DNA of 32,000 nucleotides from Desulfotalea psychrophila LSv54 (lineage in GTDB: Bacteria; Desulfobacterota; Desulfobulbia; Desulfobulbales; Desulfocapsaceae). Below, piece by piece: positions 10,221 to 14,815 of this stretch (position 1 is the first letter of the stretch; the number at the start of each line of letters is the position of its first letter). The DNA lies in the NCBI RefSeq assembly GCF_000025945.1, contig NC_006138.1, forward strand, positions 3,450,001-3,482,000, read 5' to 3'. The notes under the pieces are model-generated. The model searched no databases, was not told the origin of the DNA, and was given only the letters and a program-made list of their open reading frames with translations. The translations under genes were made by a program, and so were the position numbers.

Positions 10221-10225
10221 CGTAC

Positions 10226-10260
10226 GAGCCCCTATTGACTGCCACAGCCAATAGGGGCTC
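10226..10260 (+). terminator. Stem-loop after the ClC gene (12-bp stem, no adjacent U tract)
   Basis: GAGCCCCTATTG (10226-10237) pairs with CAATAGGGGCTC (10249-10260). A T-run appears only about 35 nt further downstream. Confidence 0.4.
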
Positions 10261-10379
10261 ACAGGGCTCGTCAGCCAGTAACAACCCTTTGCTTTTTTTG
10301 ACACTACGACAAAAAAATGCTTATCTTGTAAAGACTGCCTGCTGTTGACAAAAAACTCCTTTTTTAAAGAGATGCCCCT

Positions 10380-11231
10380 ATGAAAAACAGATTACTTCTC
10401 CTCCTGAGTACCATCCTCTTTTTCAGCACTCCCTGCCATGGCCAAACAATCCCCACTGTTTTCGTCAGTATCCCCCCACAGAAATTCTTTATTGACAGTA
10501 TAGCAGGTGGAAATGTACAGGTGCAGATCATGGTCAATCCAGGCGCCAACCCCATTACCTATGAGCCTAAGCCATCGCAAATGATAGCCCTGAGCCGAAG
10601 TATCGCCTATTTTTCCATAGGGGTACCATTTGAGCAGGCTTGGCTGGATCGCATCAGGGGAGTAAATTCCCATATGAATCTGATACCTACGGACAAGGGC
10701 ATCAAAAAAAGGAAGATGACCGCTCAGCATGGAGCAGATGGCCCGGGAACAGACCCGCATATCTGGCTCTCTCCCCGGTTAGTAAAGGTTCAAGCGCTGA
10801 CCATCAAGGATGCTCTGATTAAACTCATCCCTGAAAAGCAGTCTGTCTTTGAAAAAAATTACCGCACCTTCCTCCTCCAAATAGATCAGTTAGAGCAGGA
10901 GATAGGCGCCTCTCTGCTGGGACAGGCAGACAAGAAATTTTTGGTCTTCCATCCCTCCTGGGGATACTTCGCCCGGGACTTTGGTCTCACTCAGGTTGCC
11001 ATAGAGATAGAGGGCAAGGAACCCAAACCTGCCCAACTGACGGCAATTATCAAGGAGTGCCAGCAGGCCGGCATTCGTATCATTTTTGCCCAACCTCAAT
11101 TCTCCCAAAGAAGTGCTCGCACCATCGCCAAGGCAATAAGAGGCCAGGTGATTCTCATCGACCCCCTAGGCGAAAATTGGCTGCAAAATATGCGGGATGT
11201 TGCCAACAAACTCCAAGAACTGACAGAATAA
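10380..11231 (+). CDS. znuA: Metal (Zn/Mn-type) ABC transporter substrate-binding protein, ZnuA/TroA family
   Basis: It has a signal peptide and cluster-9 SBP blocks (DPHIWLSP, FLVFHPSWGYFARDFGL, EPKPAQLTAIIKECQQAGIRIIFAQPQFS). The metal specificity cannot be determined from the sequence. Confidence 0.8.
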   Translation: MKNRLLLLLSTILFFSTPCHGQTIPTVFVSIPPQKFFIDSIAGGNVQVQIMVNPGANPITYEPKPSQMIALSRSIAYFSIGVPFEQAWLDRIRGVNSHMNLIPTDKGIKKRKMTAQHGADGPGTDPHIWLSPRLVKVQALTIKDALIKLIPEKQSVFEKNYRTFLLQIDQLEQEIGASLLGQADKKFLVFHPSWGYFARDFGLTQVAIEIEGKEPKPAQLTAIIKECQQAGIRIIFAQPQFSQRSARTIAKAIRGQVILIDPLGENWLQNMRDVANKLQELTE

Positions 11232-11235
11232 GCCT

Positions 11236-12012
11236 ATGCAAGTACCCCTTATCGAAATCAGAGATCTCTGCCACTCCTACCAGAATCAGGAGGTATTGCA
11301 CCATATAAACCTGGAGGTATATCATGGTGATTTTATCTCTATAATTGGCCCAAACGGCGGGGGAAAAACAACCCTTTTAAAATTGATCATCGGCCTGCTC
11401 AAACCTACCCGGGGTGAGATCCTTATCAAGGGCCAGCCCTTTGATAAGGAGAGGGCCACCATCGGCTATGTACCTCAATACATCAATCACAACCTCAACT
11501 TCCCCGCAACCGCCCTCGATGTCGTTTTAATGGGTTGCCATAGACCCGCCAGGAGATTTAAGCTCGGCCACTGTAAAAAAGATCGAGAGGCAGCCCAACT
11601 CTCCCTTGAAAAAATTGGCATTGAGAACTGTGCAGAAAAAAAAATCAGGGATCTCTCCGGTGGACAACGGCAGAGAGTGCTCATTGCCAGAGCCCTGGTC
11701 TCAGAACCTGAACTGCTGGTACTCGACGAACCTACAGCCAGTATCGATACCAAAGGGCAGACAGATTTTTATAATTTACTTCAGGAGCTGAACAAAGATA
11801 TCACCATCCTCATGGTCAGCCATGATCTCCTGATGATCTCCTCCTATGCAAAGTCAATTGCCTGCCTCAATAAAGGCCTCAGCTACCACCCAACATTTAC
11901 ATCCTTTAACGATGTGCTCAATGCCTTCTACTCCTGCTCTGTCAAAAATTCCTGCCTCTCTACTACCCTCAGTCAGGAGCATTTACAAATTCACCAAAAG
12001 GGGAGTCTCTGA
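11236..12012 (+). CDS. znuC: Metal ABC transporter ATP-binding protein
   Basis: Walker A is GPNGGGKTT, the signature is LSGGQRQR and Walker B is LLVLDEP. Its stop overlaps the next start (TGATG). Confidence 0.85.
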   Translation: MQVPLIEIRDLCHSYQNQEVLHHINLEVYHGDFISIIGPNGGGKTTLLKLIIGLLKPTRGEILIKGQPFDKERATIGYVPQYINHNLNFPATALDVVLMGCHRPARRFKLGHCKKDREAAQLSLEKIGIENCAEKKIRDLSGGQRQRVLIARALVSEPELLVLDEPTASIDTKGQTDFYNLLQELNKDITILMVSHDLLMISSYAKSIACLNKGLSYHPTFTSFNDVLNAFYSCSVKNSCLSTTLSQEHLQIHQKGSL

Positions 12013-12857
12013 TGCTTGAAGCCCTCCAATTTGAATTTATGCGTAATGCCCTTATGGCGGGAATGCTGGCCAGCATACTCTGTGGCATCATCGGTAGTCT
12101 CATCGTTATTAACCGACTGGTCTTTCTCTCGGGTGGCATCGCCCACAGCGCCTACGGAGGCATCGGTCTGGCAGCATTCTGCGGTTGGCCCTACCTGCTG
12201 GGGGCCACAGGTTTTTCCCTGGTCTCTGCCATGGTTATGGCCGCTGTCTCCATCAAGGCCAAGCATCGGGCCGATACCATCATTGGTGTTATATGGGCCC
12301 TGGGCATGGCCATAGGTATCCTCCTCCTTGATATGACGCCTGGCTATAACGTCGACCTGATGAGCTACCTCTTTGGCAGCATCCTCAGTGTCCCCACTGC
12401 AGATCTGGGCATAATGGCAGCCATAGGCTGCATTATCTTATTTGTGGTAGGATTTTTCTTCAGTGATATTTCGGCGATGTCCTATGACGAGGAATTTGCT
12501 CAGGTACGGGGCGTGCCCGTCCGTCCGCTCTACTTCCTCCTCATCGGCATTGTGGCCATCACCGTGGTGATGGTTGTCCAGCTTGTGGGATTGATCCTGG
12601 TCATAGCCCTGCTGAGCATCCCGGCCCATATCGCTGAAAAGTATACCAAGTCCCTATTAGGAATGATGGGCCTCTCCTGCCTTCTCGGTATGGGATTTAT
12701 TCTGGGCGGACTCTGGCTCTCCTACACCTACGACCTCACCTCGGGAGCCACCATTATCTTCTTTGCCGGAGTCGTCTTCTTTCTCTCTCTAGGCCTGGAC
12801 AAGATAATTTCCTTCCTGCGCAAACGAAGAATCGTCCTAGCCCACAGGCCCTCTTAA
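12012..12857 (+). CDS. znuB: Metal ABC transporter permease
   Basis: A polytopic membrane protein with ZnuB/TroCD-type composition, translationally coupled to the ATPase gene. Confidence 0.85.
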   Translation: MLEALQFEFMRNALMAGMLASILCGIIGSLIVINRLVFLSGGIAHSAYGGIGLAAFCGWPYLLGATGFSLVSAMVMAAVSIKAKHRADTIIGVIWALGMAIGILLLDMTPGYNVDLMSYLFGSILSVPTADLGIMAAIGCIILFVVGFFFSDISAMSYDEEFAQVRGVPVRPLYFLLIGIVAITVVMVVQLVGLILVIALLSIPAHIAEKYTKSLLGMMGLSCLLGMGFILGGLWLSYTYDLTSGATIIFFAGVVFFLSLGLDKIISFLRKRRIVLAHRPS

Positions 12858-12917
12858 AGAAGAAGGGCCCGCCAGGTATTCTGACTGTCTACATAGGTAG
12901 TGTTCAAAGACTGACAG

Positions 12918-13211
12918 GCCGTCTACATCTGTATATTGTCTGTTTCCTCGATGTTTGAGCCTTTATACATTTGTATATTGCCCGTCTACTCGGGTTTTCA
13001 GGCCGTATACATTTGTATATTGCCCGATTACTCGGTGTTTGAGCCTTTATACATTTGTATATTGTCTGTTTCCTCGATGTTTCGGGCTTTATACAGATGT
13101 ATATTGCTTCACTACTGGAGTTTTCAGGATTTATACAGATGTATATTGCGCCAATATTCTGGTTTTCAGGCTTTTTGCATCTGTTTATTCTCTCATGAGC
13201 CTAAGCTTAGG
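12918..13211. repeat. Seven head-to-tail 42-bp units, each carrying a conserved dyad core TA(TA)CA-NN-TGTATATTG
   Basis: Core starts are at 12924, 12966, 13008, 13050, 13092, 13134 and 13176, exactly 42 bp apart. Units 2-4 read TATACATTTGTATATTG and units 5-6 read TATACAGATGTATATTG. Unit 1 reads TCTACATCTGTATATTG and unit 7 is degenerate (TTTGCATCTGTTTATTC). The other 21 bp of each unit are related but much more divergent. Confidence 0.9.
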
Positions 13212-13245
13212 GTTTGCCTCAACAGGTAAGGCCTCTTTCTTCAGT

Positions 13246-13277
13246 CGTCATTTTCTTTTACTCAAAAGAAAATGACG
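13246..13277. other. Perfect 14-bp hairpin with an ACTC tetraloop and no U tract on either strand
   Basis: CGTCATTTTCTTTT (13246-13259) pairs without mismatch to AAAAGAAAATGACG (13264-13277). Confidence 0.8.
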
Positions 13278-13340
13278 GTTCAATAATGAATAGGTGGAGC
13301 TAAAACAAATCAATCAGACTGTTTAAAGTTTACACTGCAC

Positions 13341-13506
13341 TAGTGCTTTGTAGAGCTTTAGATATCGTAAATATTGTTTAGCCATTTTGGTGCGCTGCAA
13401 GGCACGAATGAAGGAGCATAGCAGCGCTATGTGACCGAATGAGAAACGAAGTCAGCGCGAGAAAAGGGCAAACAATATACGGGGGATAAAGTTTTACAGA
13501 GCACTA
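13341..13506 (+). other. 166-nt rod-like imperfect palindrome (candidate structured RNA or MITE/ERIC-like element); strand assignment tentative
   Basis: The outer helix pairs 13341-13360 with 13487-13506: 20 contiguous pairs, 17 Watson-Crick plus 3 G-U in the plus sense. A 5x5 internal loop follows. Then 13366-13383 pairs with 13466-13481 (3+9+3 bp with A bulges), and UUUU/AAAA and UGCGCUG/CAGCGCG extend the rod. The apical hairpin is CAUAGC-AGC-GCUAUG (13417-13431). The right arm overlaps the mocA stop codon. Confidence 0.6.
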
Positions 13507-14094
13507 AAGGCGAGGCCACTCTGCCAGAAGTTGCTGATAGCGTTCCGGGGTATCTATATCGACAAATTCAGCGGAATCGCTAAATTCAAGACTGCAGAGC
13601 AGATGGGGATGGGCACGAATCACCTGCCGACCACCCTCATCCCCCTCCAGAGCCAATAGCTGAGGGCCAAGAGAGGCGGGAAAGATAACAGGATTTCTAG
13701 GCTTTCCTGCCACCTCGGGGCGAACGATTCGACTCTTATCCCTACTAAAAAGCGCCACCATCCTCTCTATACTTGCCGGACGCAGACAGGGCTGATCCGC
13801 CACCGCAAAGAGAAAACCGTCCTGAGCGCGGCTCAACTCAAGGCCCAAACGTACGGAGTAACTCTGCCCCCTCTCTGGATGACTATTGCGCACCAGATGA
13901 AGAGGATAAGACCCCGCACATCCTGCCACCTGATCGTCTGCGTAGATGAGAAAAACTGATCTAAAGAGATGGTAGGGAAAGGCATCCAGAAACACCTCCA
14001 GCAGTGTTTTACCACCGAGGGGCAGGAGAAGCTTATTGGTGCCCATCCGCCTCGAAAAACCTGCCGCTGGGATAATGGCATCAAGTTCAGGCAT
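13504..14094 (-). CDS. mocA: MobA-like nucleotidyltransferase, probable molybdenum cofactor cytidylyltransferase
   Basis: The N-terminal motif IIPAAGFSRRMGTNKLLLPLGGKTLLE is typical of MobA/MocA. I chose the start at ATG 14094, with GAGGAGAGGG upstream; it overlaps the yqeC stop (ATGCCTGA). Confidence 0.75.
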   Translation of the reverse strand: MPELDAIIPAAGFSRRMGTNKLLLPLGGKTLLEVFLDAFPYHLFRSVFLIYADDQVAGCAGSYPLHLVRNSHPERGQSYSVRLGLELSRAQDGFLFAVADQPCLRPASIERMVALFSRDKSRIVRPEVAGKPRNPVIFPASLGPQLLALEGDEGGRQVIRAHPHLLCSLEFSDSAEFVDIDTPERYQQLLAEWPRL

Positions 14095-14815
14095 AGACCC
14101 TCTCCTCATGGATACTCCCGGCCACAAATTCTCTAGTCGGACACAGTTTTCTCAGGGCACTGGCCTCTTGAAAAAGCTCTGCAGACTCGACCTTGTTCAG
14201 ATAGATCTGCTCCCGGCCATGGGCGCGGGCAAACATACCACAGCCCCCCTCCACCACCCGTCGCAGGTGGTCAAGACTGAGTGCATCACCGGGAGAGGCA
14301 TCGGTAAGCTCCAGAAAGAGAGGGAGACGATGGACAAGACTCTGGTCAATCCGCTCCCCCAACACACTTATATCCAGCACCCCTATACTATGGGTGGTGC
14401 AGGCTGGCACAACCGGCTCCGTCTCCTTCCACCCCTTAAGGGGCAGGCACTTAGAGCCATCGGCCTCTATCAGGACCAGATCAAAAAACTTGCTAGAGCT
14501 CAGCAAAAGAGAATCTGCCAGCCCCGCCAACTTTCCCTCCTCGGCGGGCAGACCGGCAACATAGATCCCGGCCTGAGTTGGCTGGAACGCAAAGCCCTCT
14601 CCACTCAAATCTATCTCATCGTAGAGCTCTGGCTCAGGGACAAAGATCCTGGTACTGGTTGTAACCAGCACCCTCATGCCTCTGGCCCGCGCTTCACGGG
14701 CAATTTGAAACATAAGAGATGTCTTCCCCCCGGCGCCAATGATTGCGGCAACAGAGCCGCAACCAAGGCCAAAGGCTGTGAGAAAACTCTCCTCTCTATG
14801 CCAGTTTTCCATCAT
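14087..14815 (-). CDS. yqeC: YqeC-family putative selenium-dependent hydroxylase accessory protein
   Basis: It is 242 aa with the P-loop-like N-terminus AIIGAGGKTSLMFQIA and the later LIEADGSK block that I recognise from the YqeC family. It is translationally coupled on both sides within a Mo hydroxylase operon. Confidence 0.7.
   Translation of the reverse strand: MMENWHREESFLTAFGLGCGSVAAIIGAGGKTSLMFQIAREARARGMRVLVTTSTRIFVPEPELYDEIDLSGEGFAFQPTQAGIYVAGLPAEEGKLAGLADSLLLSSSKFFDLVLIEADGSKCLPLKGWKETEPVVPACTTHSIGVLDISVLGERIDQSLVHRLPLFLELTDASPGDALSLDHLRRVVEGGCGMFARAHGREQIYLNKVESAELFQEASALRKLCPTREFVAGSIHEERVYA

What the first reader, a model, noticed from the sequence alone, without database searches (positions are those of the whole stretch)
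12918..13211. Seven exactly phased 42-bp units with a conserved TATACA-N2-TGTATA dyad in a gene-free gap between convergent operons
**Setting.** The znuB (+) and mocA (-) genes converge on a 646-bp region with no credible ORF.

**Phasing.** The left half of the region is a tandem array whose dyad cores start at 12924, 12966, 13008, 13050, 13092, 13134 and 13176. The spacing is exactly 42 bp every time. That is four helical turns at about 10.5 bp per turn, so all dyads face the same side of the helix.

**Conservation pattern.**
- The 15-17 bp core is almost invariant across units.
- The only variable core positions in units 1-6 are the two central bases of the dyad (TT, GA or TC).
- The remaining 21 bp of each unit diverge by roughly 25-50%.

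Invariant half-sites with a free centre and a degenerate spacer are what selection for a dimeric DNA-binding protein produces. Neutral satellite decay would not give this pattern.

**Possible roles.** I know of no described element matching this architecture in sulfate reducers. The array could be:
- a cooperative operator or nucleoprotein-filament site;
- a centromere-like or iteron-like site;
- a titration sink for a regulator;
- the control region of an unannotated RNA.
Basis: partly seen in the sequence, partly recalled or inferred. Interest (0 to 1): 0.7.

Follow-up and report, generated by a model that had tools for sequence, protein, structure and literature searches.

The report
Strain-specific 42-bp palindrome-core tandem repeat
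Between two converging genes of Desulfotalea psychrophila lies a 42-bp tandem repeat with an invariant palindromic core that looks like a row of protein docking sites, but it is missing from the closest relative, has no homologue or partner gene I could find, and its function is unproven.

Summary
Window 12918-13211 is a tandem array with period exactly 42 bp and no indels. It has five perfect TATACA-NN-TGTATA dyads, one with a single mismatch, and one degenerate end unit.

- **Core conservation.** The core is far better conserved than the rest: 1 of 12 dyad columns varies against 21 of 30 others (p=3.5e-4). Units 2-6 show no core change, although non-core divergence (0.26-1.65 substitutions/site) matches or exceeds znuB dS (0.55) to the nearest relative.
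- **Organism.** Desulfotalea psychrophila LSv54; the flanking gene is DP3064.
- **Absence in the relative.** In the closest relative found (a metagenome contig, about 86% DNA identity) the same convergent znuB/mocA stops are 9 bp apart. About 634 bp, holding the array, a hairpin and a MITE-like element, are LSv54-specific.
- **No supporting context.** I found no homologous array, ORF, Rfam family, or par/rep/cas/regulator gene. The clade's Zur box (ATGCAACTAAGTTGCAT) differs from the dyad.

**Best reading (about 0.4):** a lineage-specific array of sites for a dimeric DNA-binding protein, built like F-plasmid sopC and possibly a relic of a mobile replicon. **Main rival (about 0.3):** a functionless minisatellite. 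The whole-genome motif scan could not be completed.

The parts
12012..12857 (+). znuB (ABC-3 permease), last gene of znuACB; left boundary of the gap
   Evidence: Pfam ABC-3 9.1e-70; 100% identical to the D. psychrophila protein P0121
12874..13503 (.). About 634 bp of LSv54-specific DNA (array, hairpin and MITE-like element), absent from the closest relative
   Evidence: L251 aligns at 86.8% to window 11839-12850 and at 83.8% to 13525-13734. L251 has 40 bp (positions 1013-1052) between the two aligned blocks, and the two stop codons there are 9 bp apart
12885..12904 (.). Degenerate partial copy (CTGTCTACATAGGTAGTGTT) lying 34 bp rather than 42 bp before unit 1; decayed left edge of the array
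   Evidence: Read from the sequence; the repeat finder copy 12882-13007 at 64%
12918..12959 (.). Unit 1; dyad 12922-12935 TCTACATCTGTATA (1 mismatch)
12960..13001 (.). Unit 2; perfect dyad 12964-12977 TATACATTTGTATA followed by TTG
13002..13043 (.). Unit 3; perfect dyad 13006-13019
13044..13085 (.). Unit 4; perfect dyad 13048-13061; inner spacer (unit positions 22-39) identical to unit 1
13086..13127 (.). Unit 5; perfect dyad 13090-13103 TATACAGATGTATA
13128..13169 (.). Unit 6; perfect dyad 13132-13145 TATACAGATGTATA
13170..13211 (.). Unit 7, degenerate right edge; in-phase remnant 13174-13187 TTTGCATCTGTTTA (3 of 12 dyad mismatches)
13246..13277 (.). Perfect 14-bp A/T-rich hairpin with loop ACTC and no T-run on either strand
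   Evidence: the repeat finder I2; 14 consecutive pairs in the minimum-energy folds of both strands; no terminator-like site in the gap
13341..13506 (-). MITE-like element with 20-nt terminal inverted repeats, each starting with TA; its right TA lies in the mocA stop codon. Related to the Geobacter 'Gmet_R10xx' multicopy family
   Evidence: the repeat finder I3 and I5; fold z=-5.4; alignment to five Gmet elements sharing the centre TAGCGCTGCTA; PMC2700814 Fig. S1 states that similar sequences occur in D. psychrophila
13504..14127 (-). MobA-like NTP transferase (mocA-like, DP3064); right boundary of the gap
   Evidence: Pfam NTP_transf_3 1.7e-36; 100% identical to DP3064 of D. psychrophila LSv54

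Best explanation
The array is a lineage-specific tandem repeat. Its units were held under selection for an invariant 17-nt block, TATACA-NN-TGTATA-TTG, while the remaining roughly 25 nt drifted and recombined.

**Proposed mechanism.** Each dyad is the docking site of a dimeric, probably helix-turn-helix, DNA-binding protein. The fixed 42-bp spacing (about four helical turns) puts five or six dimers on one face of the helix, so they can form one cooperative nucleoprotein complex. This is the same construction as the F-plasmid centromere sopC.

**Proposed origin.** The whole roughly 634-bp gap is missing from the closest relative, and no partner gene lies nearby. The array was therefore probably either brought in as a fragment of a mobile replicon (a centromere, iteron or operator array) or acquired in the LSv54 lineage. 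Its binder, if it still exists, is encoded elsewhere on the chromosome or on one of the strain's two plasmids (that the strain has two plasmids is from my own knowledge).

**Shown:** the array, its phasing, the core-versus-spacer contrast, recombination between units, absence from the relative, and the lack of coding or RNA-family signal.

**Inferred:** protein binding, cooperativity and mobile origin.
For: - Period exactly 42 bp with 0% indels.
- Six dyads against 0.82 expected, and 0 of 100 shuffles reach that count.
- Dyad columns vary in 1 of 12 cases against 21 of 30 elsewhere (p=3.5e-4). Units 2-6 have 0 of 15 core differences against 8-17 of 27 elsewhere.
- Non-core JC distances between units (0.26-1.65) equal or exceed znuB dS=0.55 to the relative, so the units are old while the core is unchanged.
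- The variable positions inside the core are the two central bases, as expected for a dimer site.
- The architecture is the same as sopC: 12 x 43 bp, a 16-bp 7-2-7 inverted repeat with a free centre, four helical turns, and degenerate first and last repeats (PMC3177203).
- The same 17-mer is a conserved site in the divergent promoter next to a TetR-family gene in nine Stenotrophomonas/Xanthomonas genomes. Dyads of this type are therefore plausibly used as repressor operators.
- Foreign or recent origin: the array is absent from L251.
Against: - No binding protein is identified, and no par, rep or regulator gene lies next to the array.
- The array is absent from the only close relative, so any function is young or dispensable.
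- The invariant block is asymmetric: TTG has no mirrored CAA. A purely symmetric dimer site does not explain this.
- The site lies at the 3' ends of two operons, so there is no promoter to regulate.
- Both end units have decayed.
- Recombination between units is evident, so core-centred homogenisation cannot be excluded.
Confidence: 0.4

Rival explanations
1. The array is a functionless minisatellite (VNTR) that expanded by slippage or unequal crossing-over inside inserted junk DNA. In this reading the core stays identical because it is the stretch of perfect identity where inter-unit recombination and gene conversion start, not because anything binds it.
For: - It is absent from the closest relative.
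- It sits beside a MITE-like insertion in a gene-free 3' gap.
- Both edge units are decayed, as is usual for arrays homogenised by unequal exchange.
- The two junction alleles (GCCG/CCTT) and the two spacer alleles (units 1 and 4 against units 2 and 3) occur in all four combinations. Recombination breakpoints must therefore fall in the core.
- An 84-bp higher-order period is present.
- There is no partner gene and no homologue anywhere searched.
Against: - No known mechanism confines conversion tracts to 15-17 bp while leaving adjacent bases 30-67% different.
- Zero indels despite dozens of substitutions suggests that the spacing is constrained.
- A 14-bp palindrome is too short for hairpin-directed processing (my own knowledge).
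Confidence: 0.3
2. The array is transcribed, either as a znuACB 3' UTR or as a small RNA, and acts at the RNA level through repeated stem-loops.
For: - A weak sigma-70-like site lies at 12911-12939 on the + strand.
- Both strands fold far better than shuffles (z=-9.4 and -7.5).
- A perfect 14-bp hairpin lies just downstream at 13246-13277.
- No intrinsic terminator follows znuB.
Against: - The fold z-scores are expected from any row of palindromes.
- The dyad would give only a 5-bp A/U stem.
- The candidate spacer hairpin is paired in 57% of cells, and its covariation is within the controls.
- No Rfam family matches.
- The number of promoter-like sites is at the level seen in shuffles.
Confidence: 0.08
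3. The array is a Zur/Fur-type or other metal-regulator site array, acting as an operator or titration sink linked to the adjacent zinc uptake operon.
For: - It lies next to znuACB.
- In relatives the position after znuB is occupied by a Fur-family gene.
- LSv54 has no such gene in the window.
Against: - The box upstream of znuA in relatives is ATGCAACTAAGTTGCAT, which is unrelated to TATACANNTGTATA.
- No copy of the dyad lies upstream of LSv54 znuA.
- The array lies at the 3' end of the operon.
- The 91%-identical relative lacks it.
Confidence: 0.03
4. The array encodes a repeat protein (14-residue repeats) or is the remnant of one. Alternatively it is a CRISPR-like array.
For: - The period is a multiple of 3, and three of the six frames are open across the array.
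- A conserved part alternates with a variable part in each unit.
Against: - The ORFs have only TTG starts.
- The concatenated translations of five of the six frames (+0, +1, +2, -1, -2) found nothing at E<=10 among 5.8 billion proteins.
- The 'spacers' are related to one another and only about 15 nt long.
- No cas gene lies in the window.
Confidence: 0.02

Closest known systems
F-plasmid centromere sopC (the SopB/ParB-bound array of type Ia partition systems)
   Same: - Direct tandem repeats of about four helical turns (43 bp against 42 bp).
- Each unit carries an inverted repeat with two free central bases (7-2-7 against 6-2-6).
- Spacing is precise.
- The number of units is similar (3-17 against 6-7).
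- The first and last units are degenerate (PMC3177203).
   Different: - The core sequences are unrelated (TGGGACCNNGGTCCCA).
- sopC units are well conserved throughout, whereas here the spacer is 30-67% diverged.
- sopC always lies next to sopAB on plasmids. Here the site is chromosomal, flanked by housekeeping genes, with no ParA or ParB in 32 kb.
Plasmid and phage replication iterons (for example the seven 22-bp iterons of R6K, or the lambda ori iterons)
   Same: Several phased copies of a protein-binding repeat, often with partial dyad symmetry and an asymmetric conserved block.
   Different: Iterons are usually spaced about two helical turns apart. They lie next to a rep gene, DnaA boxes and an A/T-rich unwinding region. 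None of these is present here (my own knowledge of iteron origins).
Bacterial intergenic minisatellites / VNTRs (for example mycobacterial MIRUs)
   Same: Head-to-tail units of 40-100 bp in intergenic DNA, present or absent between close lineages, with decayed edge units and recombination between units.
   Different: MIRU-type repeats are dispersed at many loci and are not defined by an invariant palindromic core with a free spacer. Dispersal of this unit in the LSv54 genome could not be tested.
REP/BIME clusters at the 3' ends of convergent operons in enterobacteria
   Same: Palindrome-containing repeats clustered in gene-free DNA between convergent transcription units. They are known to bind proteins (IHF, gyrase) there.
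   Different: REPs are longer GC-rich hairpins in alternating orientation and are present in hundreds of copies. Here the units are all direct, the palindrome is a 14-bp A/T-rich dyad, and a second symmetry axis is not supported.
TetR-family operator in Xanthomonadaceae (inferred here)
   Same: The identical 17-mer TATACANNTGTATATTG is conserved in the divergent promoter between a TetR-family gene and an oxidoreductase gene in nine genomes.
   Different: It is a single site in a promoter, in unrelated bacteria. Binding is inferred from position only. No TetR gene lies near the D. psychrophila array.

Membership tests
sopC-type partition centromere | Tandem direct repeats of about 43 bp, each with an inverted-repeat binding site | tested here: met
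   Period 42 bp with 0% indels, and a 6-2-6 dyad in six units
sopC-type partition centromere | Adjacent parA/parB (sopA/sopB) genes on a plasmid or prophage replicon | tested here: not met
   Pfam annotation of the ORFs of 120 aa or more examined across the 32-kb window shows only housekeeping genes
sopC-type partition centromere | Core related to TGGGACC-PuPy-GGTCCCA | tested here: not met
   The core is TATACA-NN-TGTATA; the sopC consensus is taken from PMC3177203
sopC-type partition centromere | Bound by a ParB-family protein | not testable with these tools
   Needs EMSA or ChIP
Replication iterons | Located beside a rep initiator gene, with DnaA boxes and an A/T-rich region | tested here: not met
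   No rep gene in the window; the flanks are znuB and mocA
CRISPR array | Identical repeats of 23-47 nt separated by unique spacers of similar length, usually with cas genes | tested here: not met
   The period is 42 bp in total, and the variable parts (about 15 nt) are related to each other (units 1 and 4 share an identical inner spacer). No cas genes are present
REP/BIME or other dispersed repeat | Many dispersed copies in the same genome | tested here: inconclusive
   No other copy in the 32-kb window or in the fetched relatives.
Zur/Fur operator | Matches the clade's Zur box and lies in a promoter of a metal-uptake gene | tested here: not met
   Relatives carry ATGCAACTAAGTTGCAT upstream of znuA. 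The array lies at the 3' end of the operon
Intergenic minisatellite / VNTR | Head-to-tail units of 10-100 bp in non-coding DNA | tested here: met
Intergenic minisatellite / VNTR | Copy-number or presence polymorphism between close lineages | tested here: met
   Absent from L251, which has the same synteny and about 86% DNA identity. This rests on a single relative
Any Rfam RNA family | Covariance-model match at or near the gathering score | tested here: not met
   No match at gathering threshold. The best E-value hits are eukaryotic miRNA/snoRNA models scoring far below their thresholds

The most novel reading that the evidence does not exclude
The array is a chromosomal, sopC-like nucleoprotein array with no adjacent par genes. 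An unknown dimeric protein, encoded elsewhere in LSv54 or on one of its plasmids, coats one face of about 250 bp of DNA between two convergent, terminator-less operons. There it would act as a centromere-like or plasmid-incompatibility site, a transcriptional roadblock or insulator, or a titration sink. It would be a recently acquired architectural element rather than a promoter operator.
Probability: 0.2. Interest if true: 0.6.

Novelty: new variant of a known kind. Interest (0 to 1): 0.35.

Why it matters
**If the dyads are bound.** This would be a chromosomal array of phased dimer sites, built like a plasmid centromere but without partition genes, sitting between convergent operons that lack intrinsic terminators. 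It would be a compact natural example of a protein array used for architecture, insulation or titration in a psychrophilic sulfate reducer. It would also give a ready-made bait for finding its binder.

**If the dyads are not bound.** It would be a clear case of a minisatellite whose palindromic core stays identical while the spacer decays, which would point to core-centred recombination.

Either way it affects one strain's non-coding DNA, and no wider regulon or conserved system has been shown. The general importance is therefore modest.

Tried and rejected
1. **Genome-wide motif scan (failed).** The only genome-contig scan used a 17-nt pattern that was too unspecific.
3. **Viral scan.** Eight hits, none with the 42-bp unit. 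They were 10-bp iterons or other palindromes.
4. **blastn against plasmids and phages.** The array and the whole gap gave only chance hits.
5. **LSv54 plasmids.** The accessions I recalled (NC_006139, NC_006140, CR522871) are not in the plasmid collection.
6. **Coding.** Translations of five of the six frames against 5.8 billion proteins gave nothing at E<=10. Rejected.
7. **Spacer hairpin with compensatory changes.** Only 57% of cells are paired and covariation is within the controls. Rejected.
8. **Second dyad axis, or alternating 21-bp elements (BIME-like).** The axis at phase 32.5 is not distinct from background. Rejected.
9. **Remnant of zur in the gap.** No tblastn signal. Rejected.
10. 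**Zur box identity.** The clade's box is a different sequence. Rejected.
11. **dif/Xer site.** Only an 8-mer resemblance to E. coli dif. The predicted D. psychrophila dif lies elsewhere in the genome (PMC2731167). Rejected.
12. **Sigma-54 or sigma-70 promoter in each unit.** The spacings do not fit when the sequence is inspected, and the scan finds promoter-like sites only at shuffle level.
13. **MocA orthologues at 55% identity.** They keep yqeC-mocA but not the znuB neighbour, so they are uninformative for the gap.
14. **Literature.** No paper describing this repeat turned up in the library searches.

Full report
**The observation**

The sequence at 12918-13211 is a head-to-tail repeat. Tandem Repeats Finder reports 12924-13189 with period 42, 6.3 copies, 75% matches and no indels. 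It also finds an 84-bp higher-order period. The repeat finder places six in-register copies spaced exactly 42 bp apart.

Exact TATACANNTGTATA occurs at 12964, 13006, 13048, 13090 and 13132. Unit 1 (12922) reads TCTACATCTGTATA. Unit 7 keeps only a degenerate in-phase remnant, TTTGCATCTGTTTA at 13174-13187. At up to two mismatches there are six matches in the 32-kb window, all in the array, against 0.82 expected, and none of 100 shuffles reaches six. A further decayed copy lies at 12885-12904, but 34 bp rather than 42 bp before unit 1. The array is therefore real. It has five perfect dyads, one near-perfect dyad and decayed edges.

**The conservation pattern**

Among units 1-6, 22 of 42 columns vary. 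Only 1 of the 12 dyad columns varies, against 21 of the other 30 (Fisher one-sided p=3.5e-4). For the 15 non-central core columns, TATACA plus TGTATATTG, the p-value is 9e-6. Pairwise differences are 0-1 of 15 in the core and 6-18 of 27 elsewhere. The two central bases are free (TC, TT, TT, TT, GA, GA).

Two nuances matter:
- The invariant block is asymmetric. TTG after the right half-site never varies, but the left flank does not mirror it.
- The units are mosaics. The junction alleles GCCG and CCTT and the spacer alleles (units 1 and 4 against units 2 and 3) occur in all four combinations, so units have recombined with breakpoints inside the invariant core.

**Setting and organism**

The left flank is znuA (10380-11231), znuC (11236-12012) and znuB (12012-12857) on the + strand. 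The right flank, on the - strand, is a MobA-like NTP transferase (13504-14127), followed by yqeC and a xanthine-dehydrogenase-family molybdoenzyme. The rest of the window is housekeeping. It contains no partition, replication, cas, transposase or local repressor gene apart from a sigma-54 activator 7 kb away.

The MobA-like protein is 100% identical to DP3064 of Desulfotalea psychrophila LSv54. ZnuB is identical to the D. psychrophila protein.

**Comparison with relatives**

MocA homologues at 55% identity keep yqeC-mocA but not znuB, so they say nothing about the gap.

ZnuB found one much closer relative, a 1291-bp metagenome contig (L251). Its ZnuB is 91% identical, and the 83 aligned C-terminal residues of its MocA are 86% identical. 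DNA identity is 86.8% over window 11839-12850 and 83.8% over 13525-13734. In that contig the two genes converge exactly as in LSv54, but their stop codons are 9 bp apart. About 634 bp of the LSv54 gap have no counterpart there.

More distant relatives (ZnuB 78% identical) have znuACB followed by a Fur-family gene and carry a perfect ATGCAACTAAGTTGCAT box upstream of znuA. LSv54 has no trace of that gene in the window and no such box. The array dyad is unrelated to the box.

**Age of the units**

Synonymous divergence of znuB between LSv54 and L251 is dS=0.55 (dN=0.045). Jukes-Cantor distances between array units outside the core are 0.26-1.65. If the spacers changed by ordinary point mutation, the deepest unit splits are as old as, or older than, the split from that relative, yet units 2-6 have no core change.

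This means either strong constraint on the core, or a homogenising process confined to it. It also suggests that the array was already diversified when it arrived in this gap, or that the relative lost it.

**The rest of the gap**

- Positions 13246-13277 form a perfect 14-bp A/T-rich hairpin without a T-run.
- Positions 13341-13506 form a MITE-like element. It has 20-nt terminal inverted repeats that begin with TA (17 of 20 positions complementary), and the whole element folds into one long hairpin (z=-5.4). Its right TA forms part of the mocA stop codon.
- The centre of that element, CATAGCGCTGCTATG, aligns with the 'Gmet_R10xx' multicopy family of Geobacter metallireducens. Its authors noted similar sequences in D. 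psychrophila (PMC2700814).
- No intrinsic terminator-like site was found anywhere in the gap.

**What the array is not**

- **Not coding.** Three frames are open only because 42 is a multiple of 3. The ORFs start with TTG. The concatenated translations of five of the six frames found nothing at E<=10 among 5.8 billion proteins.
- **Not a known RNA.** There is no Rfam match. The strong fold z-scores are what a row of palindromes produces. A candidate spacer hairpin failed the pair-count controls.
- **Not CRISPR.** The variable parts are short and related to each other, and there are no cas genes.
- **Not BIME-like.** A second symmetry axis is not distinct from background.
- **No relative found.** Nothing related appeared in the plasmid, phage or viral collections, or in any locus fetched.

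**Best-supported mechanism**

An invariant dyad with a free centre, a drifting spacer and a spacing that never changed is the pattern produced by a dimeric DNA-binding protein that needs its sites on one face of the helix. The closest proven example is F sopC. It has 12 repeats of 43 bp, each with a 16-bp 7-2-7 inverted repeat whose two central bases vary. It is spaced at four helical turns, and its first and last repeats are set aside as divergent (PMC3177203).

A by-product of the failed genome scan gives a second precedent. The identical 17-mer is a conserved site in the divergent promoter beside a TetR-family gene in nine Stenotrophomonas/Xanthomonas genomes.

I therefore rate a protein-binding array as the most likely reading, at about 0.4. 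It would work like sopC, but it is not a member of that family, because the par genes, the plasmid context and core similarity were tested and not met. Its absence from the relative, the lack of a partner gene and the age of the units together fit a fragment captured from a mobile replicon. This last step is inference.

**Main rival**

A functionless minisatellite remains credible, at about 0.3. The array is lineage-specific. It lies in junk DNA next to a MITE. Its edges are decayed, and its units recombine within the core. What this reading lacks is a mechanism that keeps 15-17 bp identical while neighbouring bases diverge by 30-67%, and a reason for the absence of indels.

**Limits**

The test that matters most is a scan of the full LSv54 chromosome and its two plasmids for the dyad and the unit. 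It could not be done. Only one close relative was available, and it is a short contig.

**Verdict**

The array is a new variant of a known kind, of modest general interest (0.35).

Noticed in passing
window 13341-13506 (- strand): A MITE-like element with 20-nt terminal inverted repeats that begin with TA (TAGTGCTTTGTAGAGCTTTA / TAAAGTTTTACAGAGCACTA). Its right TA is part of the mocA stop codon. Its centre, CATAGCGCTGCTATG, matches the multicopy 'Gmet_R10xx short RNA element' family of Geobacter metallireducens (PMC2700814 Fig. S1). It is absent from the close relative L251.
   Followed up: partly
window 13246-13277: A perfect 14-bp A/T-rich hairpin (GTCATTTTCTTTT-ACTC-AAAAGAAAATGAC plus a C-G pair) with no T-run on either strand. 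It lies between the array and the MITE-like element, and its role is unknown.
   Followed up: no
window 10221-10379 and 12858-13503; L252 4040-4313 and 6856-7302; L253 335-514 and 3113-3565: Relatives with 78%-identical ZnuB have znuACB followed by a Fur-family (zur) gene and a perfect ATGCAACTAAGTTGCAT box upstream of znuA. D. psychrophila LSv54 has neither the gene next to znuB nor that box upstream of znuA. Control of its zinc uptake operon may therefore have been rewired.
   Followed up: partly
L002, L005, L014, L030, L039, L060, L070, L093, L115 (for example L005 7184-7200, L039 3446-3462): In nine Stenotrophomonas/Xanthomonas genomes the 17-mer TATACANNTGTATATTG is an orthologous, conserved site (GTGTATACANNTGTATATTG). 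It lies in the divergent promoter between a TetR-family regulator gene and a FAD/NAD/2Fe-2S oxidoreductase gene, so it is probably that repressor's operator.
   Followed up: partly
L245 395-542, L247 5715-6110, L248 6345-6904; L246 4320-4610: Three IMG/VR contigs carry clusters of 4-7 copies of the perfect palindrome TATACACGTGTATA at spacings of 27-34 bp and longer. A fourth carries runs of 10-bp direct repeats (TTGTATACAT/TTGTATTCAT). These are probably phage operator or origin arrays and are unrelated in sequence to the 42-bp unit.
   Followed up: no
window 12838-12874: An imperfect stem-loop (GGCCCTCTT-AAAG-AAGAAGGGCC) overlaps the znuB stop codon, with no T-run after it. No canonical intrinsic terminator was detected for either convergent operon in 12700-13700.
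   Followed up: no
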